Shown here in pieces: positions 4,269 to 64,000 of a stretch of 64,000 bases of DNA (within the stretch, counting starts at the first letter, position 1; every line of letters begins with the position of its first letter). Where the stretch lies: positions 4,799 to 68,798 of the forward strand of contig JBJXHC010000037.1 in assembly GCA_046160825.1 (NCBI GenBank), written 5' to 3'. The notes under the pieces are model-generated. The model saw only the letters and a list, made by a program, of their open reading frames with translations. It had not been told where the DNA came from and made no database searches. Source of the DNA: Bacteroidota bacterium. Lineage in GTDB: Bacteria > Bacteroidota > Ignavibacteria > UBA10030 > UBA6906. The translations under genes were made by a program, and so were the position numbers.

Positions 4269-5017
4269 TCGCCATGACCACAATATTCAAACTCACCAAC
4301 GTCAGCGTCAGGTTTACACAACGGAAATTTATCCGACAAAGCCTGAAGCACACCGTTGCCAATTTCTTCATTGAACAGGAGCAGGAGAAGTTCCGTGCTC
4401 TGACCAATGTCAGTTTCTCCATCCAAGAGGGAGAGCACGTTGGGGTCATCGGCAGGAATGGCGCGGGCAAATCAACCCTTCTGCGTGTCATGTCAAGGGT
4501 AATAACACCACAGGAAGGCGGAGTGTATTCAAATGGACAGAAACACATTGTCCCATTGCTGGAACTTGGGATCGGATTCCATCCCGATTTATCGGGGCGG
4601 GAGAACTGCTATCTCTCGGGAACTCTCATGGGATATTCCAGGGTCGAAATGAATGACAAGATGGAAAGCATCGCTTCATTCGCGGGCATTGCGGAGTTCT
4701 TCGACCAACCGGTGAAGACATATTCTTCAGGAATGTACGCCCGGCTTGCGTTCGCCCTCGCAACAGACATCGAGCCCGAAGTTCTTCTCATCGACGAAGT
4801 GTTCGGTGTTGGCGACGAATTCTTCATGCGCAAGTGCATTCTTCGTATGCAACAACTGATGCAAGCAGGGACAACAACGGTATTCGTTTCACACAACCTT
4901 GACTTTCTCGCTACGCAATGTGACCGCTTGATCTGGCTGGAGAAGGGTACCCTTGTCATGGATGGAAACCCCCCCGAGGTTGCAGCCGCGTACAGAAGGA
5001 TGGAGATTGCTGCATGA
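4265..5017 (+). CDS. wzt: ABC polysaccharide export ATP-binding protein (Wzt/TagH-like), NBD only with no C-terminal carbohydrate-binding domain
   Basis: Start chosen at ATG 4265 ('MIAMTTIFKL...'); the track ORF extends upstream into wzm. Walker A 'GVIGRNGAGKSTLL', signature 'YSSGMYARLAFALA', Walker B 'LLIDEVF'. Only ~250 aa. Confidence 0.85.
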   Translation: MIAMTTIFKLTNVSVRFTQRKFIRQSLKHTVANFFIEQEQEKFRALTNVSFSIQEGEHVGVIGRNGAGKSTLLRVMSRVITPQEGGVYSNGQKHIVPLLELGIGFHPDLSGRENCYLSGTLMGYSRVEMNDKMESIASFAGIAEFFDQPVKTYSSGMYARLAFALATDIEPEVLLIDEVFGVGDEFFMRKCILRMQQLMQAGTTTVFVSHNLDFLATQCDRLIWLEKGTLVMDGNPPEVAAAYRRMEIAA

Positions 5018-7881: not shown

Positions 7882-9387
7882 ATGATAATCATTTTCCTTG
7901 TCGCTCTTGCTCTCGTCTCGGATGATTCTCGTTCCAATTCTCCCGACTGGATTCGCGTCCACGAACTTACAGTCAGCGGTCTTCACCAACTGTACAGTCT
8001 TGAAATCGATGACGCGAGGCGAACATTCGACTCGGTGACCGCGATGGCGCCCGGAGATCCGCGCGGACCGTTCTTCCAGTCCGTGCTTCATTTCTATGTC
8101 TACAATCTGAACCGCAGTGAGCGCGAGCTTAACACATTTCTTGACAAGTCCGAAAAGGTGGTCGCACTTTGCGAAGACTTGCTTGACAGGAACAGTCGGG
8201 ATGTGACAACAAAGTTCTACCTCGGCGGTATCCGCGGCTACCGCGGACTTGCCTATCAGGCGAGCGGTTCGTACCTCAAAGCCGTACAGGAGGGACGTAA
8301 GGGATTTCTGCTTCTTGAAGAAGCGGTGACAGAAAAGCCGGATCTCTACGATGCCCACATGGGCTTCGGGTTGTTTAACTATCTTCTGGCCAAGATTCCC
8401 TCATCGCTGAAATGGATCGTGAGCATGCTCGGCTTCAATGGCGATCTTGAAGGCGGATTGCGCTCGTTGCGTTATGCGGCAGAGAGAGGGACATATACAC
8501 GTGCCGAGGCAAAGCTCTATCTCGCGCAGTTCTTGTTTTCCGAGGGAAGGCGCGATAGCGCAGTCCAATATCTGAACGAGCTGCGCCGGGAGTATCCGGA
8601 GAACACGCTCTTCACGGTTCTCTACGCATCGTTTCAACACCGCATGGACAACCTGGATGAAGCGATGCGCGCAGCGAACGCGGCAATAGAATTGAACAAT
8701 CGGAAGAACATCCGCTACGGCGATGAGCTTGCACACAGCACGCTCGGCAGTATCTATTACACGAAGAACGATTTCACGAACGCGGCAACCAACTACCGAC
8801 TCTACCTGAAAGCAACTTCCGATGAGGCACGCGTGCCAAACTTTACATTATTCCGCGGCGGCGTGGCGTGTGAGATCGGGGGAGATAGAGCAACAGCACT
8901 GGAATTTTATCGGCGTATGAAATCCGATGACCAGGCGCGCGGAGGTGGAGCGCAACAGTACCGCAGGGCCCAGGAACTCATCCGTCGACCCATGACAGAA
9001 GCAGAAATCTTGATGGTGAAAGCGGGGAATGAATCATCGCAAAAGAAATATGAGGCTTCCGCGGAATTATTCCGTGCGGCGCTCGCGAAGGCCGGCGACA
9101 ACATTGATCTTCAGGCGCGGGCATTGTATGGACTTCAACAAGCCGAGTTCGATTCGGACAAGCTCGCCGATGCCGGGAAGACATCACGCCGTATACTTGC
9201 ACTGAAGCCTGTCAATGAGCAGTGGATTATTCCACACGCATGGTTCAGGCTGGGACAGATCCATGTAAAGTCGGGAAGAAAGGCTGAAGCAAAGACGGCA
9301 TTTGAGATGGTGGATGAGTTTGATGATTACGAGTTCGAGGAGCGTCTTGAGCCGCGCGCAGAAGAGGAATTGGAGAACCTCGACTAA
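7882..9387 (+). CDS. TPR-repeat protein with N-terminal membrane anchor/signal
   Basis: 501 aa. Repeated TPR-like helices (for example 'AEAKLYLAQFLFSEGRRDSAVQYLNELRREYPEN'). N-terminus is hydrophobic. Confidence 0.7.
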   Translation: MIIIFLVALALVSDDSRSNSPDWIRVHELTVSGLHQLYSLEIDDARRTFDSVTAMAPGDPRGPFFQSVLHFYVYNLNRSERELNTFLDKSEKVVALCEDLLDRNSRDVTTKFYLGGIRGYRGLAYQASGSYLKAVQEGRKGFLLLEEAVTEKPDLYDAHMGFGLFNYLLAKIPSSLKWIVSMLGFNGDLEGGLRSLRYAAERGTYTRAEAKLYLAQFLFSEGRRDSAVQYLNELRREYPENTLFTVLYASFQHRMDNLDEAMRAANAAIELNNRKNIRYGDELAHSTLGSIYYTKNDFTNAATNYRLYLKATSDEARVPNFTLFRGGVACEIGGDRATALEFYRRMKSDDQARGGGAQQYRRAQELIRRPMTEAEILMVKAGNESSQKKYEASAELFRAALAKAGDNIDLQARALYGLQQAEFDSDKLADAGKTSRRILALKPVNEQWIIPHAWFRLGQIHVKSGRKAEAKTAFEMVDEFDDYEFEERLEPRAEEELENLD

Positions 9388-14827: not shown

Positions 14828-15811
14828 TTGAGTTTTTCGGATAATAATGGACAAACGGAGCTGATTTCAATGGTTGAGAACAAAACCGACGAACAAAAGC
14901 TCGCCAACTTCGAGGCAAAGATCAATCGCGGCGAGAAGATCGAACCCGGCGATTGGATGCCGGAGGATTATCGGAAGAACCTCATCCGCATGATGAGCCA
15001 GCATGCACACAGCGAGATTGTGGGACAGCTTCCTGAAGGGAAGTGGATTCCATTTGCTCCGGGATTCCGTCGCAAGCTCACGCTGGTTGCCAAGGTGCAG
15101 GACGAGGCCGGCCACGGCCAGCTTCTCTACGCAGCGGCGGAGACACTCGGCGTTACCCGCGAGCAAATGCTCGATGATCTCCTGAGCGGCAAAGCAAAGT
15201 ATGCGAATGTTTTTAATTACCCGACGCCAACATGGGCGGACGTTGGGGTGATCGGTTGGCTTGTGGATACCGCCGCGGTCATCAACCAGACAATGCTTGC
15301 ACAAAGCTCGTATGGTCCGTACGGACGCGCGATGAAGCGCATCTGTTATGAAGAGTCGTTCCACATCAAGCAGGGATATGATTCCGTCGTCGTGCTTGCG
15401 AAGGGAGTGCCTGCACAGAAGGCAATGGTGCAGGATGCCGTCAACCGCTGGTGGTACCCGACGCTCATGATGTCCGGTCCGCCGGAGAGCAGGGGACTTT
15501 CGACACACTCACAGCTTGCGATGCGATGGAAGATCAAGACGAAGACCAACGAGCAGGTGCGGCAGGAGTTTGTGGACCACATCGTGCCGCAGATTCGCGC
15601 GCTCGGCTTGGATGTGCCCGACAAGGATTGCCGTTACGACGAGAAGACCGGCCACTGGCACTACACCCAACCCGACTGGGAAGAACTCAAGCGCGTTGTT
15701 AACGGCGATGGGCCGTGCAACAAGGAGCGGTTGGAAGTTCGCCGCAAAGCGCATGATGATGGTCGGTGGGTGAGAGAGGCGCTATCGCAGCATGTTAACA
15801 GGTTGTCCTGA
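14828..15811 (+). CDS. paaA: 1,2-phenylacetyl-CoA epoxidase subunit A
   Basis: Ferritin-like di-iron oxygenase. '[51 protein letters not shown]' and '[11 protein letters not shown]' match PaaA. Confidence 0.9.
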
Positions 15812-15825
15812 TACGATTCTGAATT

Positions 15826-16035
15826 ATGCCCTACTACGATGATGATGGAAATGAACTCAATCCGGATCTTGTTCCCAAACCAACACTATGTGTTGCCTGC
15901 ATGAACGATGACACAGAGGATAAGCATGAAAGAATCCTATGCAACCTCACAAGACTGGATCAAAGTGGAGATACGGAATTCAAGTGTTACGCGTTTGTAC
16001 CGAAGCGTCCGGCATCCACGAGGGATTCATGGTGA
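15826..16035 (+). CDS. Small Cys-containing hypothetical protein (possible Zn-ribbon)
   Basis: 69-aa ORF 14 nt after the paaA stop. Acidic N-terminus, Cys pattern CxxC...C...C ('CVAC', 'ILC', 'KCY'). No similarity recognised. Confidence 0.35.
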   Translation: MPYYDDDGNELNPDLVPKPTLCVACMNDDTEDKHERILCNLTRLDQSGDTEFKCYAFVPKRPASTRDSW

Positions 16036-16067
16036 GTCGTTGCTGATGTAAGAGAGGACACTGTTTT

Positions 16068-16310
16068 GTGCCAACGATACTCAGAGTCAAAGATTATCGG
16101 TTCTTCTTTTTCAGTCGTGAGGGTAATGAACCCGCCCATATACACATTGAACAAGCAGAGCGCTATGCAAAGTTCTGGTTGAATCCGGTTCAGTTGGCGG
16201 CATCGGAGGGATTTCGCAGTAGTGAGATTGCAGAGTTGAGGAAGTTGGTTCAAGAAAATAGAACTCTATTTGAGGAGAGATGGAATGAGTACTTTGGCAG
16301 TAAGGGTTGA
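16068..16310 (+). CDS. DUF4160-family small protein (toxin-antitoxin-like pair member)
   Basis: GTG start. 'MPTILRVKDYRFFFFSREGNEPAHIHIE' matches the DUF4160 N-terminal signature (MPT..R..G.RF.FYS.E...PHIH). Confidence 0.7.
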   Translation: MPTILRVKDYRFFFFSREGNEPAHIHIEQAERYAKFWLNPVQLAASEGFRSSEIAELRKLVQENRTLFEERWNEYFGSKG

Positions 16311-16527
16311 ATCAAGAATTATCGACTTGTCCTTTACCTCGAACGCTCTCAAAGTCGTGCTTGCAGACGGAAGGGAAGTTTCTGCACCGTTGGAATGGTT
16401 TCCCCGGTTGCGCGATGCGAGTGAACAACAGAGAAAAAACTGGCGCCTGATTGGTAGCGGGATCGGCATTCACTGGGAGGATGTTGACGAGGATATTTCC
16501 GTGAATAGTCTTCTGGCAGCAAACTAG
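16285..16527 (+). CDS. DUF2442-family small protein (partner of DUF4160)
   Basis: Start at ATG 16285 ('MSTLAVRV...'), overlapping the DUF4160 gene by 26 nt. 'WFPRLRDASEQQRKNWRLIGSGIGIHWEDVDEDIS' matches the DUF2442 C-terminal motif. Confidence 0.7.
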   Translation: MSTLAVRVESRIIDLSFTSNALKVVLADGREVSAPLEWFPRLRDASEQQRKNWRLIGSGIGIHWEDVDEDISVNSLLAAN

Positions 16528-17120
16528 TATTTCCATAGTAAAATTCGATAGGCGAGCGCGACACTGGAGGTGACAGGTGAAAAATTTCGCTTCGTTATCA
16601 CCCGAATCAACGGCAACAAACAAGGCATTTGACCTATTATGGCTACAAAACACACAATGCCCACGTTCTTGCAAGGCGTGATAACCGCTTAAGCATATGA
16701 ACGCTGGTTACGTCGAAAGGCGCATGCTCATGTTATCCGTGATCGAAAGCGCGAACGAAAGTGTACTGTATCGAACTACAAAGAAGCGATTCATGCCGCT
16801 GTACTTCTGTCACAAGGAAAGGATGCTTACACGGGGGAGACCCTCCACTGGAAGCTCATTAGCACATACAAAAACGAAGAATCTAAAAGGGAAGACACGC
16901 GTACAAAACCGGTTTTGCAATGTTGCCAACAGTAGATCACGTAACAGCAGAAGCGTCCGAAGCGAGCTTCAAAATTTGCTCCTGGCGCACGAATGATGCC
17001 AAGAACGATATGTCACTCGAAATGTTTTTGAAGTTATGTCAATTAGTACTCAAGCACGCCGGATATGATGTGAAGAAGAGTGCGTAAGACCTTTGGCTCT
17101 GATAGTTAAACTCAAACGAC

Positions 17121-17408
17121 ATGTCCGACACCCAGTGGGAAACATACGAAGTCTTTCATCAGAGTAAGAAGGGCGACCCGCATCAGTCCGTTGGCACTGT
17201 GCATGCGCCCGACCCTGAGATGGCGCTGCAGATGGCGCGTGACCAGTTTGCACGACGGCTCAAGTGCGTCAGCTTGTGGGTGGTGAGAACGAAAGACATC
17301 ACCGCAACCAACTACCAGGACGAAGACTTCTTTGCACAGACCACCGATAAAAGCTATCGCGACCCCAAGGCATTCGACGCGCCGATGAAAGACCTCTCGC
17401 ATGACTGA
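17121..17408 (+). CDS. paaB: 1,2-phenylacetyl-CoA epoxidase subunit B
   Basis: 95 aa. 'WETYEVFHQSKKGDPHQSVGTVHAPDPEMALQMARDQFARRLKCVSLWVV' matches PaaB. Confidence 0.85.
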   Translation: MSDTQWETYEVFHQSKKGDPHQSVGTVHAPDPEMALQMARDQFARRLKCVSLWVVRTKDITATNYQDEDFFAQTTDKSYRDPKAFDAPMKDLSHD

Positions 17409-18171
17409 GCTATCAAAAGGCACTCCACGGGAACCGCTTCTTCGTTTCATTCTCGCAATGGCCGACGATGAATTGATGCTCGGTCACCGCAACGCCGAGT
17501 GGACCGGACACTCGCCCATCCTCGAAGAAGACATCGCGTTCTCCAACATCGCACAGGATGAGCTTGGGCATTCGCTCGTCTGGTACACGCTGCACGAGGA
17601 GTATACAGGAAAATCTCCCGACAGCATGGCGTTTGAACGCGCATGGGGTGACTTTACATGCTGCCGGTTTGTTGCGTACCCCAAAGGCGATTTCGCGTAC
17701 ACGGTTGTTCGGCAATACCTGTTTGATGAAGCCGAACAGGTGCGACTGGCGTCGTTTGCCAAAAGTTCGTTCACACCATTCAAAGATATCGCCGGCAAAC
17801 TGTTGCGCGAGGAAGCGTATCATCTCATGCACCTAAAGGGGCTGGTAATGCGACTCGGCGATGCAACTGAGGAAAGTCACCGACGTATGCAGGCCGCATT
17901 GGACGTTGCGTTTCCGCAAGCGCTCGGCATGTTCGAAAAGGTCGAAGGCGAAGACGAACTGGTCAAGGCAGGAATCATCGCGGGTAATTCAACGTTTCAA
18001 GAAGAGTGGATGAGCAGGGTAAAGCCCGTTCTGTTATCGGCTGGCCTCAAGGTACCATTGTCACCCCATGCCGATCTCGGCGGACGTCAGCGCAAGCATA
18101 CGGAACACTTGAAGCAACTGGTGGATGATTTACAGTCGGTGTATAGGATTGCGCCGGAGGCGAAGTGGTAA
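17401..18171 (+). CDS. paaC: 1,2-phenylacetyl-CoA epoxidase subunit C
   Basis: 'LLRFILAMADDELMLGHRNAEWTGHSPILEEDIAFSNIAQDELGHSLVWY' matches PaaC. 8-nt ATGACTGA overlap with paaB. Confidence 0.85.
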   Translation: MTELSKGTPREPLLRFILAMADDELMLGHRNAEWTGHSPILEEDIAFSNIAQDELGHSLVWYTLHEEYTGKSPDSMAFERAWGDFTCCRFVAYPKGDFAYTVVRQYLFDEAEQVRLASFAKSSFTPFKDIAGKLLREEAYHLMHLKGLVMRLGDATEESHRRMQAALDVAFPQALGMFEKVEGEDELVKAGIIAGNSTFQEEWMSRVKPVLLSAGLKVPLSPHADLGGRQRKHTEHLKQLVDDLQSVYRIAPEAKW

Positions 18172-18220
18172 AGCATTGTATAATGACGGGCTCTCCCCCT
18201 GTTGAGCTAGTCGACAAGAC

Positions 18221-19345
18221 ATGCGCGGACTCTGCCCAATCCACCCCTCTCTTCCTAAGAGAGGGGCCGGGCCTGCACGCCGGAGGGCGTTATGGCCCGC
18301 AGGCGGGGGAGAGTTTGCGGGGACATCTACAATGAGCCTTTCCCGGAATTCTCATCTGATGCATCTCGCCCGGGAAGTGTGTCGTGAGCTTCGCAAGAAC
18401 CAGACCCACGCCGAGCAAATCATGTGGGGTGGCCTCAGAGCAAATCGATTCCGGGAAAAGAATTTTCTCCGTCAACATCCAATCTTCGTAGATGCGAATG
18501 GTAGAGAGACATTCTACGTTGCTGATTTCTATTGCCACGAGCATCGTCTCGCCATTGAGCTTGATGGCCGGATCCATGAGCGCACCAAGGAACGCGATGA
18601 AGTAAGAACAATGGTCATCAACGATCAAGGCATTGAGGTTCTTCGTTTCAGAAATGAAGAAGTGGAGAAGGATTTCAATGGTGTTCTTGAGCGCCTTGCA
18701 GAAAAACTAAATTTGCCGCCACGGAAAGACCAGAACTCTCCCCTCACCCCCGCCTGCCTCAACGAAAACTCGGAGGCGGGCAGGCCTCCCTTAGAAGGGG
18801 AGGGGGATGTTGGGCTTGTGAACAATGTACCAACCTCCCCTCTCTTCCCAAGAGAGGGGCAGGGGGAGAGTTTCTTATCCACCATCTGGTCCGCACTCGC
18901 CAAGATCCAGGATCCGGAAATCCCCGTTCTCTCTCTTGTGGAAATGAAAATCATCCGCAGTGTAACGGTGACGAATGGCGAAGTGTCGGTCGTGATGTCG
19001 CCGACGTTCGTCGGGTGTCCGGCGCTGGACCATATGAAGGAGGAGATCCACGAGCGACTCAGGAATCTCGGTTGTGAGAAAGTGAAAATCGCCATGACGT
19101 TTTCGCCGCCATGGTCAACCGATATGTTGGACGAAGCGACCCGGGAAAAATTGCGCGTCTATGGTATCGCACCTCCGCCGAAATTCGATCCGGTACTCGT
19201 CGACAGTTTGAATATAACTGCTCACTGCCCCTTCTGCGGTTCCGGGCAGACCCGTATGCAAAGTCCATTCGGTGCAACGCTCTGCAAGCAAATGTATGTG
19301 TGCGAAAACTGCCGGCAGCCGTTTGAGCGCTTCAAGCCGGTATGA
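18221..19345 (+). CDS. paaD: In-frame fusion ORF: DUF559 (Vsr-like endonuclease fold) domain followed by 1,2-phenylacetyl-CoA epoxidase subunit D
   Basis: Residues ~38-165 are DUF559 ('MSLSRNSHLMHLAREVCRELRKNQTHAEQIMW...FYVADFYCHEHRLAIELDGRIHER...GIEVLRFRNEEV'). Residues ~205-374 are PaaD ('IWSALAKIQDPEIPVLSLVEMKII...FVGCPALDHM...CPFCGS...CENCRQPFERFK'). An in-frame GTG at 18818 could also initiate a stand-alone PaaD. Confidence 0.7.
   Translation: MRGLCPIHPSLPKRGAGPARRRALWPAGGGEFAGTSTMSLSRNSHLMHLAREVCRELRKNQTHAEQIMWGGLRANRFREKNFLRQHPIFVDANGRETFYVADFYCHEHRLAIELDGRIHERTKERDEVRTMVINDQGIEVLRFRNEEVEKDFNGVLERLAEKLNLPPRKDQNSPLTPACLNENSEAGRPPLEGEGDVGLVNNVPTSPLFPREGQGESFLSTIWSALAKIQDPEIPVLSLVEMKIIRSVTVTNGEVSVVMSPTFVGCPALDHMKEEIHERLRNLGCEKVKIAMTFSPPWSTDMLDEATREKLRVYGIAPPPKFDPVLVDSLNITAHCPFCGSGQTRMQSPFGATLCKQMYVCENCRQPFERFKPV
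18244..18316. repeat. Hairpin repeat copy 1 (CCCCTCTC-TTCCTAA-GAGAGGGG ... GGGGGAGAGTTT) upstream of the DUF559 domain
   Basis: Perfect 8-bp inverted repeat at 18244-18266. Motif GGGGGAGAGTTT at 18305-18316. A near-identical copy lies at 18837-18873. Confidence 0.6.
18837..18873. repeat. Hairpin repeat copy 2 (CCCCTCTC-TTCCCAA-GAGAGGGG CA GGGGGAGAGTTT) between the DUF559 domain and the PaaD domain
   Basis: Same 8-bp stem and 7-nt loop (one loop substitution) as copy 1, immediately followed by GGGGGAGAGTTT. Further imperfect hairpins lie just upstream at 18747-18783 and 18788-18806. Confidence 0.6.
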
Positions 19346-22410: not shown

Positions 22411-23580
22411 TTACAGTTCCGTCAACGTATGCGTGCGTCCCTTGTTTGCCGTTTTCAAATATTCCATCAATGGTTGATAATACTCGAGCATTGCTCGAGC
22501 ACTGAGGCCTTCTCCCGTCTTTTCCTTCAGCACAACTCTCCAGTCTCTGCTCGCACCCGGACGCATGATGCTTTGCAGAAACGCTCCGACCTCTTTGTTG
22601 CCGGAGTAGTTGCAGTTGTTGGGATCCTGCTTGAGAATATTCTTTGCGATATGGCCGTGGAGTTGAAACTTCAGTATGCATGAAAGCGCGTAGTCATAGT
22701 ATTGTGCCGCATCGTCGTTGACGTATGTTTTGGTCGCGGCATCGCAGTACTCCACGCCCCGTGCCGTCGGCGGAACGACCCCCTGATACTTTTGCACGTA
22801 TTCCCACCAGCGCGCGTTGTATTGATCTTTCGGGAGGTTCTGTTCATACAAGTCGTGCTCGAAATGCGACATCGTACCGGTCGAGAAGGGGATGAAGACA
22901 AGGGAACGGCTGGAGAGCGCGTCGTTCAACAACCATTGCACCTGATCGATCTTCACGTCAGTTGAGAGCAAGCCAAGCTCCTCAAGGTATGCGCGCTGGG
23001 ACGAAGCAAGGTCCATCAGATCACCCATGCCCTCGTGGTAACTCCGGTTCGCTCCTTCACGAAGGACCAGCGGGACATCGGGCATCGAGTATTCGATGTA
23101 GTAATAAATATGACCCAGCTCGTGATGCGTTGTGCCGAACCAATCAGCGTTCGGGATAACACTCATCAGCGAACGGTAATCATCCTGTAGATCCAGATGC
23201 CAGGCAGATGCATAATTATTTTTCTTGCGGGGAGTGCCCACTGGAACCGGGTAAAGGTCCGATTTCTCCCAGAAATTCTGCTTCATGGCAGGAAAGCCGA
23301 TGCTCACATAGAACTTCTCGGCCTGTTGCACGATCCACTCCGCCGATTTGTCTTTGAAGAGTGCATCCAGATCGACCGCCCTGATAATGCCCGGCCAGTT
23401 TTGGCCCCAGCGGTTTGATGTCCAATGTGCCGGAAGCATTTCTGGAACAGGCTGATTGTATCGCTTTGCCAATTCATAGCGAGCCCATGTGTGAAGTTCG
23501 ATACACAGTGGCCGCAGTTCACGCACAAGTTGATCCATCAACGCCATCATCTCCTGTGTCGTCATGCCGTAATCGGCCAC
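22411..23580 (-). CDS. M2-family (angiotensin-converting-enzyme-like) zinc peptidase, N-terminally truncated (catalytic half only)
   Basis: 'TTHHELGHIYYYIEYS' matches the ACE HHEMGHIQY zinc motif. 'EGANRSYHEGMGD' holds the third Zn ligand. The C-terminal 'YNARWWEYVQKYQGVVPP...' aligns to the ACE C-terminus. The ORF is only 389 aa (bacterial and animal M2 peptidases are ~600 aa). Only ~137 bp separate its start from the next gene. Confidence 0.6.
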   Translation of the reverse strand: MADYGMTTQEMMALMDQLVRELRPLCIELHTWARYELAKRYNQPVPEMLPAHWTSNRWGQNWPGIIRAVDLDALFKDKSAEWIVQQAEKFYVSIGFPAMKQNFWEKSDLYPVPVGTPRKKNNYASAWHLDLQDDYRSLMSVIPNADWFGTTHHELGHIYYYIEYSMPDVPLVLREGANRSYHEGMGDLMDLASSQRAYLEELGLLSTDVKIDQVQWLLNDALSSRSLVFIPFSTGTMSHFEHDLYEQNLPKDQYNARWWEYVQKYQGVVPPTARGVEYCDAATKTYVNDDAAQYYDYALSCILKFQLHGHIAKNILKQDPNNCNYSGNKEVGAFLQSIMRPGASRDWRVVLKEKTGEGLSARAMLEYYQPLMEYLKTANKGRTHTLTEL

Positions 23581-57138: not shown

Positions 57139-59844
57139 TTACTTCGTCACGATCATCTTCTTTACATCCGAGAAATCTCCTGCCACCAGCTTATAGAAGT
57201 ACAGGCCGCTCGATAGAGCGCTTGCGTCAAACTCCACCGACTTGAAACCCGCCACCTGGATTTCGTTGACGATGGTACTCACTTCCTTGCCGAGTACATC
57301 ATAAACCTTGAGGCTCACGTGTACATCCACCGGCAATCCATAGGATATTCTGGTGACAGGGTTAAACGGGTTGGGATAGTTTGTTGAGAGCGAGAAGACT
57401 TCCGGTATACCGGTTTCGCCCGCGGCCTTCTCCAGAATATCCTGACAGCCAATGGTGACCGTGCTCGATTGCGTGGCCAGGTTGCTACTATTGTCATATG
57501 CGACCACATAGTATCCAATGGTTGACGGACTGCCTGTTTGGATTGTTATGTTGGGGTCTTGATAGCTGGTTACAGTCGGACCAACCGTTGTTCTCAGTGA
57601 GAATGTCGCAATGCCACATTCAGAGCGGTAAATCTTGTATCCCGCAAGGTCCGATTCCGTATTCGCCGTCCATGAGACCGTCGGGTGTTGCCCTGTACTA
57701 CCGCTAATGGCAACACCCACTGTTTTTTCCGGCGCTGGATTTATTTTGTGTATCCCGGCAGCCGTCGCAAAGTAAATCAATGAATCCCTTGTTACATCAC
57801 GGCTCAGATCGGCGAATGGCGTTGTTAAACCCGACGTGCTGATTTCGGTCCAGTTGGAGCCACCGTCAATCGTCTCGAAAACCTTGTTGCCACCATCAGC
57901 AATAACCCACAAGTGATTTGTAGATGACGGATACGACGGATGCATCAGGACTTTGCGTACAGCATCAGACCGGATCCCGGTCCATGATGACCCGCTATTG
58001 GTGGATTTCCACATTCCGTAGCTGCTGTAAACATCGCCACCCGCGTAGACTGTGGAAGGAGAAGCGGTATTCAGAGCAAGGGATTTTATTGTATAACTGT
58101 TACCAAGTGACAGTTGAGACCAGTTGGTACCGGCATTTGTTGTCTTGTAGATTCCCTTACCGGAGACTCCGGCGTACAATATTTGTGATGTAGTCCCACC
58201 TCCAGCTCCCGTGGGATCAATTGCCATGCACAATGCCGGATTGCTCACGCCATCAATCTTGCTCTGGACGGTCCATGTCGAGTAGTTATTCATACTCACC
58301 ATGATATTCGACTCAATGTTTGTCGATCCATTGGATCCCTTCAGCCAACCCAATGCGTAGCGACGGACATTCTCGTTTGGGTCTGCGACCAAAGCGTTAA
58401 TGACGTAGTCGGACGCACTCACATTGGAGCGAAATTTCTCGGCCCAGTTGCTGGAACCGCTTGCGTCATTGTAGAAAGCAACTGCATCGTATGATGACGA
58501 CCCTGATGAAGGTTTCTGTCGCCCTCCAGCAGCAGCCTTTGACGTATTGTATGAATCGAATGTCACAACGGTCGGCTCAAGCGGCATATCAACGTCAGTA
58601 ACCACTGCCCGCCAAGACTGACCACCGCTGGCATATCGCCAAATGCCGCTGAATGTCGGCCCCACCGCAAGAACGGATGCACTTGCCGCAGAAACAGAAG
58701 TTGTGGGAACAATGGTAAGACCGTTGTTCTTATCCTGCCAGTTGATCAGCCCGGCGCTTGATCGAGACCCAAAAAATACCGACGAACTCGAAACAGCAAA
58801 GACATCATTGGCATCCGTCGAATTGACTGCGATACCACGGACATCCATGTCAAACATTCCATCATGAGCGGTGGTGCTATTGTCATGATACCAGTTTGCG
58901 CCGTTATCAAAACTATAGGAAATGCCAAGTTTATTATTGCCCACATAAATCCGGTTACTTGATGAATTTGTGGACATTACAGTGATAAATGTGATGGCCC
59001 CCTCCTCGCGGTCAAATACCTGCGTCCAGGAGCTTCCATCGTTCGTTGACTTCCACAATTCCCCATCGTCGCTCCCATAGTCCGCCGTCCCCACAAAAAT
59101 GGTGGTAGCACCACCACTCACGGTTGAGACTGCAATCGAGGAAAGACTCTTGCCCACCAAATCGCCCGAGGTAACTATTGGACCCCAATCAGCTCCTGCA
59201 TTTTCGGAGTACCATACACCTCTTTTGAGGACCATGGGCGAAGCCTCTCCATAATCGTAGTACATGTCTTCACTTGTTGGAGTAGCTTCAGATGCGGCAT
59301 TCACCGGTACTGCCGACCCGGCAACCCAGACCTTATTCTCGTCCGTAGGGTGCCAAGCGATACCGAGAATGTGTGTCTGGACTTCGTTAAAGAAGTAATA
59401 GTCGGGAGCCCAATTCTCTCCAGCATCATCACTTTTGTACAAGACAGGGTGCAATGAACCCGACTGTGGCCATGCGGTTCCAAGAAAAACATTGTCTGGT
59501 TCTGCAGATGATATGCCGAATCGACGTGGTAGCAGGTTGGAGACCGAAAAGGAGTAGAAAAAAGAACTGCCTCCGTTCGTACTGGTTTTGATGTTGCCAG
59601 CATCTGCAACTTGAACTTCATTCGCATTGCTCGGATTACAAACAACCGCAAATGGGCTACTGAGTGTAGTCCCTGTCGCCGACCAAGTTCCTCCTCCGTC
59701 AGTTGACTTCTTTAAATTAGTGCCATAGTCCGCAAGGTATAGAACTCTTGTCGAACTTACGTACCCCCCTGCAATATCCTTTCCATTGCTCACCCTCCAC
59801 GGACCGTTTAACGAAACCCATGTTTGAGCATTAAGCTGTAGCAT
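57139..59844 (-). CDS. T9SS-targeted BNR/Asp-box repeat protein (multi-propeller, sortilin/GH74-like)
   Basis: At least nine Asp-box motifs (SxDxGxxW/F: STDGGGTW, STNGGSSF, SDDAGENW, SENAGADW, STNDGSSW, SFDNGANW, TNAGTNW, STNSGSSW, TIDGGSNW). C-terminal T9SS sorting domain '...FDASALSSGLYFYKLVAGDFSDVKKMIVTK'. Confidence 0.8.
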   Translation of the reverse strand: MLQLNAQTWVSLNGPWRVSNGKDIAGGYVSSTRVLYLADYGTNLKKSTDGGGTWSATGTTLSSPFAVVCNPSNANEVQVADAGNIKTSTNGGSSFFYSFSVSNLLPRRFGISSAEPDNVFLGTAWPQSGSLHPVLYKSDDAGENWAPDYYFFNEVQTHILGIAWHPTDENKVWVAGSAVPVNAASEATPTSEDMYYDYGEASPMVLKRGVWYSENAGADWGPIVTSGDLVGKSLSSIAVSTVSGGATTIFVGTADYGSDDGELWKSTNDGSSWTQVFDREEGAITFITVMSTNSSSNRIYVGNNKLGISYSFDNGANWYHDNSTTAHDGMFDMDVRGIAVNSTDANDVFAVSSSSVFFGSRSSAGLINWQDKNNGLTIVPTTSVSAASASVLAVGPTFSGIWRYASGGQSWRAVVTDVDMPLEPTVVTFDSYNTSKAAAGGRQKPSSGSSSYDAVAFYNDASGSSNWAEKFRSNVSASDYVINALVADPNENVRRYALGWLKGSNGSTNIESNIMVSMNNYSTWTVQSKIDGVSNPALCMAIDPTGAGGGTTSQILYAGVSGKGIYKTTNAGTNWSQLSLGNSYTIKSLALNTASPSTVYAGGDVYSSYGMWKSTNSGSSWTGIRSDAVRKVLMHPSYPSSTNHLWVIADGGNKVFETIDGGSNWTEISTSGLTTPFADLSRDVTRDSLIYFATAAGIHKINPAPEKTVGVAISGSTGQHPTVSWTANTESDLAGYKIYRSECGIATFSLRTTVGPTVTSYQDPNITIQTGSPSTIGYYVVAYDNSSNLATQSSTVTIGCQDILEKAAGETGIPEVFSLSTNYPNPFNPVTRISYGLPVDVHVSLKVYDVLGKEVSTIVNEIQVAGFKSVEFDASALSSGLYFYKLVAGDFSDVKKMIVTK

Positions 59845-60088
59845 TGCAAGAAGGCAGCGGCACAGAACAGTTTGCGAATCATAGCGTACTCCTATTGTAG
59901 TATTGATGAAGAGGGGATTGTTTGTTACAATAGAAGTGCGAGGACACCGGCGTCACTTAGGTGACGATGGGTGGCGTCCTTCGCACCCGAGGGGCAGCGT
60001 TAACGCGCTGCCTCTCATTGTTTTTTAAACAAGGAGCATTGCCGCAACAACAATCACCTCCTTTCTGGTTTTTCTTCTCATATGAAGT

Positions 60089-61519
60089 TCATCTCAGCAG
60101 AAGAAACTTTCCCAAATGCACTTCTGTACCAGCGGTGATTCGATACATGTAGACCCCAGTTGGAAACTCGGTTGCTTCCCATCGTGTAGAATACTCGCCG
60201 GGACTCCGTTCTCCCACATCAGCAAGACTCTGTAGTTGCCCAAGAATGTTATAGACTTCAACGCGAACCCTTGCGTTCCTTGCGAGTCGGTACTTGATTG
60301 TTGTGCTACCATTAAATGGATTTGGAAATGGTTCGTACACTTTGAACATGTCAGGATAAGTTGAACGTGATCCTCCAACATTCACCAGCGGAAGGGTTCC
60401 AGCTCTCATGAAAACACCTCCGATGTCATTGACTCTTTTTCCCCATCCCACAAAAGCGACTGATGCCGACAAAGCGTTTGACGGATTTCCTCCTGTATCA
60501 GCTACAATACAAAGAGAACTCCAGCTTACCCCTTTGTCGATGGATAACCTGGATTCAACGCCTCCTCCACCAGCCCAAGTGGCCAAGAGATAAACACCAG
60601 AGTTCGTGAGTTTGGAAACATCACCCCATGGCGTTTCTGTAAGGGTTTGTTCATCAAACCATGTTGTGCCATTATCTGTTGAACAACGGAAAAGAACGCT
60701 GCATCCCACAAAACCCGTACAACCATATTTTGTATCAGTCCATGTGATATAGACGTTTTCTTCTGCGGAGGCTGCAATCGACGGTATGCCACCCCCGCGA
60801 TTGTCGCAAGTAGAAAGCATAATCGAATCGCTCCATGTGACGCCCAAATCGGAACTACGACGATACAACTGCTCGAAAGAACACCCCTGAATAAAATAAC
60901 TGTAGGCAAGATGCAGCCAGCCGTTACTGAGTGATACACGGGGGTCATTGGTATAGAATGGAAATTCCGCTTGAGTCCAAGTAATACCCCCATCCGTGCT
61001 TGAGATAATCCAGTCATAATCTATTGGGGCAAGGTAACCGACGATGGCAATCGTATCTCCAAGCACGGCAACATTCTGGATGTAACCATTTTGCGTGGTA
61101 ATCGCTTGTGGTTCAGACCATGTATCACCGCGATCATCTGATGCTAGCATGAAAATTGGACTGTCTCCCGAACCGTCAATACCACCAACAAAGAAAACAG
61201 AGAGTTTTCCGTCGTCGCTAATTATGAATGAGCTACCCACCGGGAACGGAAACTCAGTGGTATCGACGAGTAAATCTCTGACAGATTGCCAAGTGAGTCC
61301 ACCGTCAACTGATCTCCTGTACGGCAGCCAGAATCCCCCACCAGCAAATACGAGATGAATCGTGTCGCCTTGTGCTACCATCCGTGGCTTACTAGCACCG
61401 CCGCCGTCTGGAGAAAGTTGGAGAGATCCTTGCCACGTGATGCCGCAGTCGGTAGTTTGTCCATTTAGCCCAGCCGCAGTTGCCAAGAAAACAATCAGAG
61501 GGACCAACGCTCGTCGCAT
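60089..61519 (-). CDS. T9SS-targeted BNR-repeat sialidase-like beta-propeller protein (copy 1, intact)
   Basis: Signal peptide. Six Asp boxes (SVDGGLTW, SDDRGDTW, STDGGITW, SSDLGVTW, STDNGTTW, SIDKGVSW). T9SS CTD '...GVYMYRITAGTEVHLGKFLLLR'. Confidence 0.8.
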   Translation of the reverse strand: MRRALVPLIVFLATAAGLNGQTTDCGITWQGSLQLSPDGGGASKPRMVAQGDTIHLVFAGGGFWLPYRRSVDGGLTWQSVRDLLVDTTEFPFPVGSSFIISDDGKLSVFFVGGIDGSGDSPIFMLASDDRGDTWSEPQAITTQNGYIQNVAVLGDTIAIVGYLAPIDYDWIISSTDGGITWTQAEFPFYTNDPRVSLSNGWLHLAYSYFIQGCSFEQLYRRSSDLGVTWSDSIMLSTCDNRGGGIPSIAASAEENVYITWTDTKYGCTGFVGCSVLFRCSTDNGTTWFDEQTLTETPWGDVSKLTNSGVYLLATWAGGGGVESRLSIDKGVSWSSLCIVADTGGNPSNALSASVAFVGWGKRVNDIGGVFMRAGTLPLVNVGGSRSTYPDMFKVYEPFPNPFNGSTTIKYRLARNARVRVEVYNILGQLQSLADVGERSPGEYSTRWEATEFPTGVYMYRITAGTEVHLGKFLLLR

Positions 61520-61705
61520 TACAGTTCACCTTTGGTTTGTAATATGTTTATTGCTTCTTCAACACTTGAATTGCCACTCACGCCCGAGGGGCGGTGGTAG
61601 CACACCGCCTCTCATTTTTTTTCGAACCTGCACCATCGCCTCCCGGATTCCCCGCGTCTACAACAGGTTAGTGCCCCCTAATGACCTCCTGCTGAATATT
61701 GAGAA

Positions 61706-63216
61706 TTATCGAAGAAGAAGAATCTTACCAACAGCAATAAGTCCCCGGCTTTCCAGCCGGTAGAAATACACCCCGCTCCCGAAACCGTTTGCATCCCAAG
61801 CCACCTGATGCAAACCTGCACTCTGGAACTCATTGACAACGGCATCAACGGCTTCTCCCAGCACATTAAATATCGACAGTCGCACGTCTGCACCGGTTGA
61901 GAGAGAATATGAAATCGTTGTGGATGAATTGAACGGGTTCGGATACGCATCCAGGAATTGAAATGCTAATGGGCTTTCGTAAGCGGGTTCAGCTACCGAA
62001 ACCGCCAGGCTTCCAACACGTATTACTACATTAAAGGGAACTGCCGTTGTGTCTCTTTGGTCCCAGGCAACAATTACTCCGCTTCTGGCAATACTGTTTC
62101 TTGGGTAGACAGCCCTACCTGTTTGAGGAATCGAAGGCGTGAGATCAACAACCGGACACCAGGAGATTCCGTCATCAGTGGAGATACGCGTTTCAACATG
62201 AAGCAGAATGCTGGCCCTGAACCAAGTCACAAGCACAGTTTCGCCATTGGCAGAAACATCCGATACATTCCCCCAATGATTGTCCGTTAGAATGTGTTCG
62301 TCAAACCAACTCGCACCGTTGTCCGTGCTTTTTCGGAACAGAATCCCACATCCCCCGAATCCTGCACATCCATACTTCGAGTCTGTCCACGTGATGTATA
62401 CCCCCCCTTCCGGTGTTGCTGCAATCGCCGGTGTGCCACCGCCTCTATTGTCACATGTGGATAGCATAACAGAATCGCTCCATGTTTGACCGAGATCGTA
62501 ACTGCGTCGGTATAACTGCTCAATTGAACATCCCTGGATAAAATAGCCATACGCCAAATGAAGCCAGCCATTACTGAGAGCTACCCGTGGATCATTGGTG
62601 TAGAATGGGAGCTCGGTTTGAGTCCAACTAACACCGCCGTCCGTGCTTGAGATAATCCAGTCGTAATCTATTGGGGCAAGGTAACCGACAATAGTTATGG
62701 TGTCTCCCAAAACCCCAATATTTTGGATGTAGCCATTCTGTATTGTAATCGCTTCGGGTTCCGACCAAGTTTCACCGCGGTCATCTGATCTCAACATGAA
62801 GATCGGGCTGTCCCCCCAACAAAAAAAACATAGAGTCGTGAAGTGCTGACGACAGGGAATGCCTGGAGAGCTTCATTTGGGAAGGTAACTGTATCAGTAA
62901 GCACCTCTCTAATCTCACCCCAGTTCATCCCACCATCAGTCGACCTCCTATATGGTAGCCTGAATCCTGCAACCTCAAAGAAGAGATGGACTGTATCTCC
63001 TTGTACGACCATCATTGGCGAATTGGATTGGACATTGTCTGGAGAAAGCTGCATAGGTTGTTGCCACGTGATGCCGCAGTCGGTTTGTGCAAAACAGAAC
63101 GAGGAACAAGTAATAATCAATGAGGTAAGAACAACGAAGCGCATCATAGCACTCTCCTGTGTGAGAGACTTCCTGGCATCAAACTGATCGAGTGTTACTC
63201 TCGACAAACAAAACAC
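61706..63216 (-). pseudogene. Frameshifted tandem paralog of the BNR sialidase-like T9SS gene (copy 2)
   Basis: ORFs 62791-63216 (N-terminus, 'QTDCGITWQQPMQLSPD...') and 61706-62797 (rest, 'MLRSDDRGETWSEP...STDGGVSW...SYDLGQTW...') align collinearly to copy 1, with high nucleotide identity. Relative to copy 1 a ~13-14-nt segment (encoding IDGSG) is missing at ~62800-62830. This shifts the frame and creates a T8/G6 run on the coding strand. Confidence 0.7.
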
Positions 63217-63242
63217 TGAGATGAGATGAGATGAGATGAGAT
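63217..63242. repeat. Pentanucleotide microsatellite (TGAGA)5
   Basis: 'TGAGATGAGATGAGATGAGATGAGAT' immediately 5' of the first in-frame ATG of the copy-2 gene on the minus strand. Confidence 0.8.
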
Positions 63243-63353
63243 AAACCCTTGGTGAACCTCACGGAGCAACATAGGTATTTCTTGCGAACATGTCAACTTA
63301 CGCACCTGCGAATATACTCATCGCAAATCGCTTGCGCAACTGTGGTTTGTACT

Positions 63354-63362
63354 GGGGGGGGG
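63354..63362. repeat. Homopolymeric G9 (C9 on minus) tract in an intergenic region
   Basis: 'ACTGGGGGGGGGACACC' between the copy-2 5' region and the next T9SS gene. Confidence 0.7.
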
Positions 63363-63515: not shown

Positions 63516-64000
63516 TTATTTTACAAGCACCATCTTCCTCATCTCATTGAAATTCCCAGACTCCGATGTGGCTTTGAGTCTATAGAAATAAATACCGCTT
63601 GCGACTGACCGACCGGAATGATCTTTGCCATTCCACACGACATCATAACTCCCGGCATTCATCTTGTCGTTCATCAGTGTGGTAATCTCCTGCCCGATCA
63701 GGTTATAGACACTCAGCGTCACGTTGCTGTTCGCCGGCAAGTTGAAACTGATGGTCGTGCTGGGATTGAACGGGTTCGGATAGTTCTGAGCAAGCTCAAA
63801 TCGCTCAGGGGTACCGGTCTCTCCGCCCACCGACAATACAGCAGATTGCAGCATGGTGAGGTTCACGTCTTCGAGAGTAAAAGTTGTCGGAGAAACCGTC
63901 ACATCGTTTGATGCAGGGTCGTATCCTTCACGATCGGCAACGATTTGAATTGTACCGGTGTTTACGGCGTCAATGGTGTAATTTCCGGCAACATCCGTTA
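63516..64000 (-). CDS. T9SS C-terminal sorting domain protein, 3' portion only (gene runs off the window end)
   Basis: C-terminal 'VTLSVYNLIGQEITTLMNDKMNAGSYDVVWNGKDHSGRSVASGIYFYRLKATSESGNFNEMRKMVLVK' is a canonical T9SS CTD. The reading frame remains open to position 64000. Confidence 0.6.
   Translation of the reverse strand, partial: TDVAGNYTIDAVNTGTIQIVADREGYDPASNDVTVSPTTFTLEDVNLTMLQSAVLSVGGETGTPERFELAQNYPNPFNPSTTISFNLPANSNVTLSVYNLIGQEITTLMNDKMNAGSYDVVWNGKDHSGRSVASGIYFYRLKATSESGNFNEMRKMVLVK

What the first reader, a model, noticed from the sequence alone, without database searches (positions are those of the whole stretch)
60089..63216. Recent tandem duplication of a T9SS BNR sialidase-like gene; second copy inactivated by a 13-14-nt deletion
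The two copies share long stretches of near-identical nucleotide sequence, including the 3'-flanking hairpin. Copy 2 lacks the segment encoding 'IDGSG' between two Asp boxes. The deletion leaves the sequence GTTTTTTTTGTTGGGGGG at its site and splits the gene into two ORFs (62791-63216 and 61706-62797). A deletion this long is unlikely to be a homopolymer sequencing error. It suggests ongoing birth and death within a T9SS cargo family, or a switchable gene.
Basis: seen in the sequence. Interest (0 to 1): 0.6.

Follow-up and report, generated by a model that had tools for sequence, protein, structure and literature searches.

The report
Old paralogue pair, one copy frame-broken
Two neighbouring genes for secreted propeller proteins are ancient, much-diverged duplicates, not recent ones, and one copy is interrupted by what amounts to a single missing G in a run of Gs; this is an ordinary young pseudogene, switched-off copy or consensus error in a fast-evolving gene cluster.

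Summary
The two tandem T9SS/BNR genes and the frame break in copy 2 are real in the sequence, but the reading "recent duplication plus a 13-14-nt deletion" does not hold. The copies are 54% identical in protein. Synonymous sites are saturated everywhere. The best 600 nt are 72% identical, with one 50-nt near-identical patch. The same cluster (paralogue, paralogue, ~900-aa BNR gene, plus the same 3' hairpin) occurs in two distantly related metagenome contigs, so the pair is old.

Copy 2 is 16 nt shorter than copy 1 at the site, that is 15 nt (IDGSG) plus 1. Adding one G to the G6 run restores a 480-aa ORF reading VFFVGG-DSPIFML. That protein models confidently with a tighter hairpin, and the loop varies in length among homologues. 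The disabling lesion may therefore be a single-base loss, and a homopolymer error is not excluded.

Points favouring a genuine lesion:
- About 47 other ORFs in the window show no split.
- The adjacent 901-aa gene has lost its signal peptide to a second frame break.
- The upstream paralogue is independently split in a related contig.

Simple repeats are enriched around copy 2, so switching remains possible. Reads are needed to decide.

The parts
60089..61519 (-). Copy 1: intact 476-aa protein with a signal peptide, a six-bladed BNR/Asp-box beta-propeller and a T9SS type A C-terminal domain.
   Evidence: ORF. PF13088 scores 58.2 bits and PF18962 scores 33.8 bits. AF2 mean pLDDT is 90.3. Foldseek top hits are GH33 sialidases and a pseudaminidase at 13-20% identity.
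61166..61180 (-). Codons for I114-D-G-S-G118 of copy 1, the loop segment absent from copy 2.
   Evidence: Nucleotide alignment. The loop lies between strands 105-112 and 122-127 in the model. Its length varies among homologues.
62791..63147 (-). Copy 2, N-terminal fragment (118 aa from ATG 63147, with AGGAG 8 nt upstream). It ends at a TGA 19 nt after the G-run. The ORF listing extends it to GTG 63216.
   Evidence: Weak BNR_2 hit. Not annotated as a protein in the NCBI record.
62812..62828 (-). Frame-break site: T8 (62828-62821), GTT, G6 (62817-62812). One additional G restores a 480-aa ORF reading ...VFFVGGDSPIFML...
   Evidence: The restored protein models with pLDDT 88-89 across the junction.
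61706..62797 (-). Copy 2, C-terminal fragment (363 aa): blades 2-6 plus the T9SS C-terminal domain. NCBI annotates it as a stand-alone protein, MFN0157420.1.
61586..61613 (+). Conserved 11-12-bp hairpin downstream of copy 2. It is perfectly paired only on the + strand and is followed there by T8 (61615-61622).
59989..60016 (+). Paralogous hairpin downstream of copy 1, with stem changes that are compensated relative to the other copy.
   Evidence: The same hairpin follows both L004 paralogues.
57139..59882 (-). Third gene of the cluster: a 901-aa Sortilin/Vps10-type BNR protein with a T9SS C-terminal domain. Its signal peptide is out of frame. The conserved RBS and ATG at 59882 open a 24-codon frame (to 59808), whereas the main ORF starts at 59844 as MLQLNAQTW.
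   Evidence: The start context ACAATAGGAGT-N5-ATG is conserved in L004 and L034.
63217..63242 (-). (CTCAT/TGAGA) x5.2 perfect pentanucleotide repeat between the promoter-like site (63296-63268) and the copy 2 start. It is the best-scoring tandem repeat in the window.
   Evidence: L036 has a different 10-nt tandem repeat at the same place.
63354..63362 (+). G9 run (C9 on the gene strand) in the intergenic region upstream of copy 2. It is the longest homopolymer in the window.

Best explanation
Copy 1 and copy 2 are old tandem paralogues. Each encodes a T9SS-exported six-bladed BNR/Asp-box propeller of sialidase-like fold and unknown activity. They sit in a conserved three-gene cluster (paralogue, paralogue, ~900-aa BNR protein) in an uncultured Bacteroidota MAG.

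The family evolves by divergence of its ends and by exchange between paralogues, while a central block (residues ~106-300) is kept alike within each genome.

Copy 2 naturally has a beta-hairpin loop five residues shorter than copy 1. It is interrupted by the equivalent of one missing G in a G7 to G6 run next to a T8 run.

I judge the break most likely to be a genuine and very recent inactivating mutation, that is a nascent pseudogene, in a cluster under relaxed or fluctuating selection. The neighbouring 901-aa gene has also lost its signal peptide to a frame break.

Shown: the anatomy, the age of the duplication, conservation of the cluster and the one-base repair. Inferred: that the short loop predates the frame break, and that the break is biological rather than a consensus error.
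For: Age of the duplication:
- Protein identity is 54%.
- pS is 0.5-0.8 in all segments, with dN/dS 0.04-0.05 in the central block.
- Third-position identity is 46%.

Conserved cluster:
- L004 carries two 486-aa paralogues followed by a homologue of the 901-aa gene.
- L034 has the same order of genes.
- The same hairpin follows each paralogue.

Within-genome versus between-genome similarity of the central block: residues 116-200 are 86% identical within the window and 74% within L004, against 35-41% between genomes.

Paralogue exchange: the upstream L034 gene is 72% identical to L004b in its N-terminal part and 83% identical to L004a in its C-terminal part.

One-base repair:
- Adding one G gives a 480-aa ORF with exactly the copy 1 flanks, VFFVGG and DSPIFML.
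- The zero frame follows copy 1 codon for codon through GTT GGG GGG.
- The loop length varies among 15 homologues.
- The restored protein models with pLDDT 88-89 across the junction.

Recent origin: neither fragment contains any other stop or frame shift.

Genuine rather than random error:
- About 47 other ORFs have full-length Pfam domains and none is split.
- The adjacent gene has a second break.
- The upstream paralogue is independently split at another site in L034.
Against: - No reads and no conspecific genome were available, so a consensus error at the G-run cannot be excluded.
- A single 16-nt deletion between GG microhomologies also explains the sequence with one event instead of two.
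- The enrichment of simple repeats at copy 2 suggests something more than plain decay.
- Clustering of two breaks within 3 kb is only mildly improbable under random error (about 0.05-0.1).
- The L034 break coincides with a chimeric junction and could itself be an assembly artefact.
Confidence: 0.5

Rival explanations
1. Assembly or consensus artefact. The organism has G7 and an intact 480-aa copy 2, and the contig carries a one-base homopolymer under-call. The same would apply to the signal-peptide break of the 901-aa gene.
For: - The frame is restored by exactly one G in a homopolymer that sits next to a T8 run.
- Both breaks need +1 nt.
- Both fragments are otherwise intact.
- The sequence comes from a MAG whose sequencing platform is unknown.
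- Variable, paralogous regions are prone to strain-mixture consensus errors.
Against: - No other split gene was found among about 47 ORFs.
- Other homopolymers of 6 to 8 bases, for example at 4969, 35742 and 62401, lie within or at the edge of ORFs that stay open.
- The second break is not at a homopolymer.
- An independent break of the same paralogue occurs in contig L034 from a JGI metagenome assembly.
Confidence: 0.27
2. Reversible switch (simple-sequence contingency locus). Slipped-strand changes in the G-tract turn copy 2 on (G7) and off (G6), and the contig captured the off state.
For: - Five of the window's 18 long simple repeats fall in the 1.8 kb of copy 2 and its upstream region (binomial P about 1e-4, post hoc).
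- Copy 2 has two GGG-GGG-G tracts. In 47 other genes only 1 of 132 Gly-Gly pairs is GGG-GGG.
- Copy 1 has interrupted runs at the same positions, TTTTCTTT and GGTGGT.
- There is a perfect 5-nt x5 repeat between promoter and start. L036 has a different 10-nt repeat at the same place.
- The break is recent, with no further decay.
Against: - To my knowledge, characterised phase-variable poly-G tracts are usually at least 7-8 bases long, so G6/G7 is short.
- The tract lies at codon 111, not near the start.
- The breaks in the 901-aa gene and in L034 are not at repeats.
- A full-text search found no paper combining phase variation, homopolymeric tracts and type IX secretion.
- No population data are available.
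Confidence: 0.13
3. A single recent 16-nt deletion between GG microhomologies (GG|N16|GGGGAC) removed the loop and shifted the frame in one step.
For: - It needs one event instead of two.
- The sequence is compatible if the ancestral codon before GAC was GGG.
- In L034 a break sits at a recombination junction, so imprecise exchange does occur in this family.
Against: - The deletion would have to remove exactly the variable loop and leave both conserved flanks untouched.
- In-frame differences in loop length are common among homologues and elsewhere between the two copies.
- One-base slips in G-runs are far more frequent than a specific 16-nt deletion. This rests on general knowledge and was not tested here.
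Confidence: 0.08
4. Programmed recoding. A -1 ribosomal frameshift or transcriptional slippage at U UUU UUU or the G-run makes the full-length protein from the broken gene.
For: - The canonical X XXY YYZ heptamer U UUU UUU is in the zero frame.
- The needed shift is -1.
- A weak 6-bp hairpin follows.
Against: - Slipping on the T-run gives FFCWGDSP, which does not match the family's FFVGG.
- The zero frame tracks copy 1 through the G-run, which places the break after it.
- No homologue is split at this position. L034 is split at a different position.
- The hairpin starts immediately after the heptamer and is weak.
Confidence: 0.02

Closest known systems
T9SS type A cargo proteins (C-terminal sorting domain PF18962 / TIGR04183) of Bacteroidota
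   Same: Both copies, the 901-aa neighbour and the upstream partial gene all end in a Por_Secre_tail domain scoring above the Pfam cut-off. Copy 1 has an N-terminal signal peptide. NCBI names these proteins 'T9SS type A sorting domain-containing protein'.
   Different: No T9SS machinery genes lie in the window, and export was not tested. As assembled, the C-terminal fragment of copy 2 has a sorting domain but no signal peptide, and the same holds for the 901-aa ORF.
GH33 sialidase / BNR (Asp-box) six-bladed beta-propeller superfamily
   Same: BNR_2 scores above the cut-off. Six Asp-boxes are present. The AF2 model is a six-bladed propeller whose best PDB matches are bacterial sialidases and a pseudaminidase.
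   Different: Identity to sialidases is only 13-20%. In a 44-sequence family alignment, the conserved propeller columns are Asp-box S/G/W residues and a WxDxKYG motif. No Arg, Glu or Tyr is conserved at 90% or more, as a sialidase active site would require. 'Sialidase-like' therefore describes the fold, not a demonstrated activity.
Simple-sequence contingency loci (for example the poly-G tracts in Neisseria lgt genes, PMC2192423)
   Same: A G-tract inside the ORF sets the reading frame. Simple repeats are also enriched in and upstream of the gene.
   Different: The tract is short (G6/G7) and lies 111 codons into the gene. No length polymorphism has been observed, and I found no precedent for T9SS cargo.
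Concerted evolution and birth-and-death of tandem surface-protein paralogues
   Same: The central block is far more alike within a genome than between genomes. A 50-nt near-identical patch is present. L034 carries a chimeric b/a paralogue. Frame-broken copies occur in two of the three genomes that have the pair.
   Different: Synonymous sites in the shared block are saturated. Any homogenisation is therefore old, and present similarity is maintained mainly at the protein level.

Membership tests
T9SS type A cargo | C-terminal sorting domain (PF18962/TIGR04183) at the extreme C-terminus | tested here: met
   Copy 1 scores 33.8 bits (residues 398-471) and the copy 2 C-terminal fragment scores 35.1 bits, against a cut-off of 27.
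T9SS type A cargo | N-terminal Sec signal peptide on the same polypeptide | tested here: inconclusive
   Copy 1 and the copy 2 N-terminal fragment start with typical n/h/c regions, judged by reading the sequence (helix 5-15). No signal-peptide predictor was available. As assembled, the copy 2 C-terminal fragment and the 901-aa ORF lack one.
T9SS type A cargo | T9SS machinery (PorK/L/M/N, SprA and others) present in the genome | not tested
   None lies in the 64-kb window, and the rest of the MAG was not available.
GH33 sialidase | Six-bladed beta-propeller with Asp-box repeats | tested here: met
   PF13088 scores 58.2 bits. AF2 pLDDT is 90. Foldseek probability is 1.0 against 2ber, 2w38, 8gn6 and 4fj6.
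GH33 sialidase | Conserved catalytic residues (Arg triad including the RIP motif, Tyr/Glu nucleophile pair, acid/base Asp) | tested here: inconclusive
   No Arg, Glu or Tyr column in the propeller is at least 90% conserved among 44 family members, and no RIP motif is seen in the sequence. The residues were not mapped onto a structural superposition.
Recent tandem duplication | Low synonymous divergence and near-identity extending into the flanks | tested here: not met
   pS is 0.51-0.80 in all seven segments. The best block is 72% identical at the nucleotide level. The flanks are 34-48% identical in protein, no more than between genomes.
Simple-sequence phase-variable gene | A repeat tract whose length change by one unit switches the reading frame on and off | tested here: met
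   G6 to G7 restores a 480-aa ORF.
Simple-sequence phase-variable gene | Tract-length heterogeneity within the population | not testable with these tools
   No reads were available, and no second assembly of the same species was found.
Programmed -1 ribosomal frameshift | Slippery heptamer in frame, a spaced downstream structure, and a conserved split architecture in homologues | tested here: not met
   The heptamer U UUU UUU is present, but the slipped product, FFCWG, does not fit the family. The downstream hairpin is weak and has no spacer. Nearly all homologues are single ORFs, and none is split at this site.

The most novel reading that the evidence does not exclude
Copy 2 occupies a conserved 'expression site': its promoter-like element and its RBS plus signal-peptide region are 87-90% identical in nucleotide sequence to L036, although the mature proteins are about 34% identical. 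Under this reading, the output of the site is tuned by hypermutable simple repeats (G-tracts in the ORF and variable tandem repeats in the leader), and its propeller-coding body is exchanged among paralogues. That would be a contingency-locus style of variation for T9SS cargo in environmental Bacteroidota.
Probability: 0.12. Interest if true: 0.6.

Novelty: new member of a known kind. Interest (0 to 1): 0.25.

Why it matters
The finding is a routine case: one frame-broken member of a diverged paralogue pair in a fast-evolving family of secreted proteins. It mainly serves as a caution. Similarity between paralogues, and a shared 3' hairpin, do not imply a recent duplication. A multi-base gap relative to a paralogue can also conceal a one-base frameshift.

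If the break proved to be a reversible G-tract switch, it would extend simple-sequence phase variation to T9SS cargo of uncultured Bacteroidota. The conserved regulatory elements seen in passing might then be worth study in their own right. These are the antisense-oriented terminator hairpins, the leader upstream of the 901-aa gene that hides its ribosome-binding site, and the conserved promoter and signal-peptide module.

Tried and rejected
Searches for the source contig or a conspecific genome, all without a useful result:
- Exact-protein look-ups for copy 1, the 363-aa ORF, the 901-aa ORF and the N-terminal fragment found nothing on record.
- A scan of GTDB species genomes found one distant C-terminal-domain match only.
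- A scan of JGI metagenomes with peptide patterns found no relative.

Other approaches that led nowhere or were set aside:
- A degenerate hairpin pattern scanned across JGI metagenomes returned 29 loci. All were generic GC-rich palindromes and none followed a T9SS gene.
- Rfam gave no hit at gathering scores. The only sub-threshold hit was tfoR (22 bits against a threshold of 70), which I regard as terminator-driven noise.
- A codon-usage census for frame switches was too insensitive, because it failed to flag the two known breaks. I replaced it with Pfam domain-coverage checks.
- Recent gene conversion of the whole central block is rejected, because pS there is 0.62-0.77.
- The equal ORF lengths at 7882/13219 (501 aa each) and 9540/14828 (327 aa each) looked like a second duplication. 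They belong to unrelated families.
- Two literature searches on phase variation in T9SS or Bacteroidetes found nothing relevant.
Full report
**What is there.** On the minus strand, the end of the window carries a row of genes for T9SS cargo proteins.
- A partial gene is cut by the window end (63516-63902+).
- Copy 2 starts at ATG 63147 and is split into ORFs 62791-63216 and 61706-62797.
- Copy 1 is 61519-60089 (476 aa, intact).
- A 901-aa Sortilin/Vps10-type BNR protein is 59844-57139.

Copy 1 and both fragments of copy 2 hit BNR_2. Copy 1, the C-terminal fragment of copy 2, the 901-aa gene and the partial gene end in a Por_Secre_tail domain above the Pfam cut-off. The source is an NCBI MAG labelled 'Bacteroidota bacterium' (contig 74,043 bp). 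Its annotation lists the 363-aa fragment as MFN0157420.1 and a 430-aa version of copy 1 as MFN0157419.1. The N-terminal fragment of copy 2 is not annotated as a protein.

**The duplication is not recent.**
- A global nucleotide alignment shows high similarity only in the middle of the genes.
- With the frame repaired, the proteins are 54% identical.
- By segment, protein identity is 86% and 75% for copy 1 residues 116-200 and 201-300, but only 34-48% in the four flanking segments.
- Nei-Gojobori estimates give pS of 0.51-0.80 in every segment. In the central block pS is 0.62-0.77 with pN 0.06-0.19, so dN/dS is about 0.04-0.05 where it can be computed.
- In the best 600 nt, identity is 72%, and third codon positions are 46% identical.
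- One 50-nt patch with a single mismatch (61042-60993 versus 62689-62640) is longer than any of 5,000 codon-position-preserving permutations. It may be a short conversion tract.
- A 24-nt identical stretch encodes TDCGITWQ.

**The pair is conserved elsewhere.**
- JGI contig L004 carries two tandem 486-aa paralogues followed by a homologue of the 901-aa gene.
- Contig L034, from the same sample, has the same gene order.
- Their proteins are only about 36-46% identical to the window's copies.
- In L004, too, residues 116-200 are 74% identical between the two paralogues, against 35-41% between genomes.
- The upstream gene of L034 is a chimera. Its N-terminal 177 residues are 72% identical to L004b and 48% to L004a. 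Its C-terminal 303 residues are 83% identical to L004a and 45% to L004b.

Exchange between paralogues therefore happens in this family. The within-genome likeness of the central block is best read as old concerted evolution combined with strong purifying selection.

**The 3' hairpin is a conserved element, not a mark of recency.**
- The motif AATGAGAGGCnGnG...CnCnGCCCCTCGGG occurs exactly twice in the window, at 59986-60019 and 61583-61616.
- The same hairpin follows both L004 paralogues.
- Across the four copies, 11 of the 12 base pairs are kept in every copy and the loop-closing pair in three. Three pairs carry compensated double changes, and the position of the G-U pair shifts between copies. 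This holds only when the strand antisense to the genes is folded. On the gene strand the G-U pairs become A-C mismatches.
- The T-runs also lie on the antisense strand.

**The lesion.** Copy 2 is 16 nt shorter than copy 1 at this site, not 13-14.
- Copy 1 reads GTT GGT GGT ATT GAC GGT TCG GGA GAC AGT.
- Copy 2 reads GTT GGG GGG AC AGC.

That difference is the 15 nt encoding IDGSG plus one base. Inserting a single G into the G6 run (62817-62812) yields a 480-aa ORF reading ...LYVFFVGGDSPIFML..., with both flanks identical to copy 1.

In the copy 1 model (mean pLDDT 90.3) the segment is a surface loop between strands 105-112 and 122-127. Among 15 homologues this loop ranges from the copy 1 length, or one residue longer, down to five residues shorter. 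The repaired copy 2 models confidently, with mean pLDDT 84 and 88-89 across the junction, and has a tight GGDSP turn between strands 104-110 and 116-121.

The disabling event may therefore be a one-base loss in a homopolymer laid over an older in-frame loop shortening. A single 16-nt deletion between GG microhomologies remains possible. However, it would have to excise exactly the variable loop, so I rate it lower. Neither fragment has any further stop or frame shift, so the break is very young relative to the divergence of the copies.

**Real or artefact?** No reads and no conspecific assembly were found, so this cannot be settled. The indirect evidence is as follows.
- About 47 other ORFs in the window have Pfam domains covered end to end, and no adjacent pair splits one family. 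The contig is therefore not riddled with indels.
- The 901-aa gene has a second frame break. Homologues P0122, P0123, P0125 and L004c all carry a ~25-residue signal peptide directly before QTW(T/V)SLNGP(W/K) or the equivalent (P0123 differs slightly). In the window the conserved ACAATAGGAGT-N5-ATG start (ATG 59882) opens a different frame, MIRKLFCAAAFLQCYSLMLKHGFR*, and the main ORF begins MLQLNAQTW. This break also needs +1 nt and is not at a long homopolymer.
- In L034 the upstream paralogue is independently split into 180-aa and 303-aa ORFs inside Asp-box 3, again not at a homopolymer.

Two breaks within 3 kb of one cluster, plus an independent break of the same paralogue in another assembly, favour real lesions in a cluster under relaxed or fluctuating selection. 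A local consensus problem in a variable region remains plausible. My estimates are:
- About 0.5 for a fixed recent one-base lesion.
- About 0.08 for a single 16-nt deletion.
- About 0.27 for an artefact.
- About 0.13 for a reversible switch.
- About 0.02 for programmed recoding.

**Switching.** Simple repeats are concentrated at copy 2:
- G9 at 63354-63362.
- A perfect (TGAGA)5.2 repeat at 63217-63242, the top tandem repeat of the window.
- A8 and C6 at the break.
- C7 at 62401-62407.

Five of the window's 18 long repeats lie in 1.8 kb (binomial P about 1e-4, post hoc). In 47 other genes only 1 of 132 Gly-Gly codon pairs is GGG-GGG, whereas copy 2 has two, each followed by G. Copy 1 has interrupted runs at the same positions.

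Against switching, the tract is short and not near the start, the other two breaks are not at repeats, and no precedent was found in the literature.

Programmed frameshifting is unlikely. The U UUU UUU heptamer is in frame, but slipping there gives FFCWG rather than the family's FFVGG, and nearly all homologues are single ORFs, none split at this site.

**What the proteins are.** Each has a signal peptide, a six-bladed propeller with an Asp-box in every blade, and a T9SS C-terminal domain. The best structural matches are GH33 sialidases and a pseudaminidase at 13-20% identity. By sequence alone, the PDB matches are weak and confined to the Asp-box region, with the best stretch spanning Asp-boxes 1 and 2. 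In a 44-member alignment, the conserved propeller columns are Asp-box residues and WxDxKYG, with no conserved Arg, Glu or Tyr. 'Sialidase-like' is therefore a statement about fold only.

**Verdict.** 'Recent duplication' is wrong. 'Inactivated copy' is right as assembled. 'Birth and death, or switchable' is reasonable but unproven. This is an ordinary feature of a fast-evolving cargo-gene cluster, and I score its interest at 0.25.

Noticed in passing
window 59808-59882 (minus strand), start of the 901-aa gene 57139-59844: A second frame break in the cluster. The conserved RBS and ATG (59882) open a 24-codon frame, MIRKLFCAAAFLQCYSLMLKHGFR*. The main ORF starts at 59844 without a signal peptide, although all homologues have one. 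The break needs +1 nt and there is no long homopolymer. NCBI annotated only a 767-aa version (P0121).
   Followed up: partly
window 59989-60016 and 61586-61613 (+ strand); L004 7870-7899 and 9522-9551: The hairpin after each BNR paralogue pairs perfectly only on the strand antisense to the genes, where G-U pairs replace A-C mismatches. It is followed by a T-run on that strand and is conserved with compensatory changes in four copies from two genomes. It looks like an intrinsic terminator pointing against the genes. What it terminates is unknown.
   Followed up: partly
window 59885-60022 (minus strand); arms ACTTCTATTGTA 59937-59926 and TACAATAGGAGT 59899-59888: A structured leader upstream of the 901-aa gene is conserved in the window, L004 and L034. 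It consists of the hairpin, a long stem with compensated changes and a variable interior, and an invariant 12-bp helix that would sequester the AGGAG ribosome-binding site. There is no Rfam match. It may be a cis-regulatory RNA or a palindromic operator.
   Followed up: partly
window 63258-63296 and 63105-63168 versus L036 7787-7825 and 7977-8043: The promoter-like element and the RBS plus signal-peptide region of copy 2 are 87-90% identical in nucleotide sequence to those of a single BNR gene in GCA_964538485.1, although the mature proteins are about 34% identical. Between the two conserved pieces, the window has (CTCAT)5 and L036 has a 10-nt unit (GTTCTTCCCC) repeated about 4 times, near L036 7877-7915.
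   Followed up: partly
L034 3250-4711: The upstream paralogue in a related JGI contig is split into 180-aa and 303-aa ORFs inside Asp-box 3. It is also a chimera, with a b-type N-terminal part and an a-type C-terminal part relative to L004. The break sits at the junction.
   Followed up: partly
window 62401-62407, 62812-62828, 63217-63242, 63354-63362: Long simple repeats are unusually concentrated in and upstream of copy 2: C7, C6 plus A8, (TGAGA)5 and G9. Five of the window's 18 such repeats lie in 1.8 kb.
   Followed up: partly
window 61042-60993 and 62689-62640: A 50-nt stretch with one mismatch between the copies, encoding VGYLAPIDYDWIISSTD, lies in a block where third codon positions are otherwise 46% identical. 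It may be a short gene-conversion tract or reflect a constraint at the nucleotide level.
   Followed up: partly
window 22411-23580 (minus strand): The Peptidase_M2 (ACE-like) ORF matches only profile positions 191-577 of 581, starting at residue 8. There is no room upstream for the missing N-terminal third. It is either a truncated gene or a short subfamily.
   Followed up: no
window 14828-19345: The phenylacetate paaA-paaB-paaC-paaD cluster is interrupted between paaA and paaB by a small DUF4160/DUF2442 gene pair (16068-16527). The paaD ORF as listed also carries an N-terminal DUF559 endonuclease-like domain.
   Followed up: no
window 60089-61519: The NCBI annotation starts copy 1 at Met47 (430 aa, P0002), which cuts off the signal peptide and the conserved CGITW motif that align across homologues. 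The 476-aa start fits better.
   Followed up: partly
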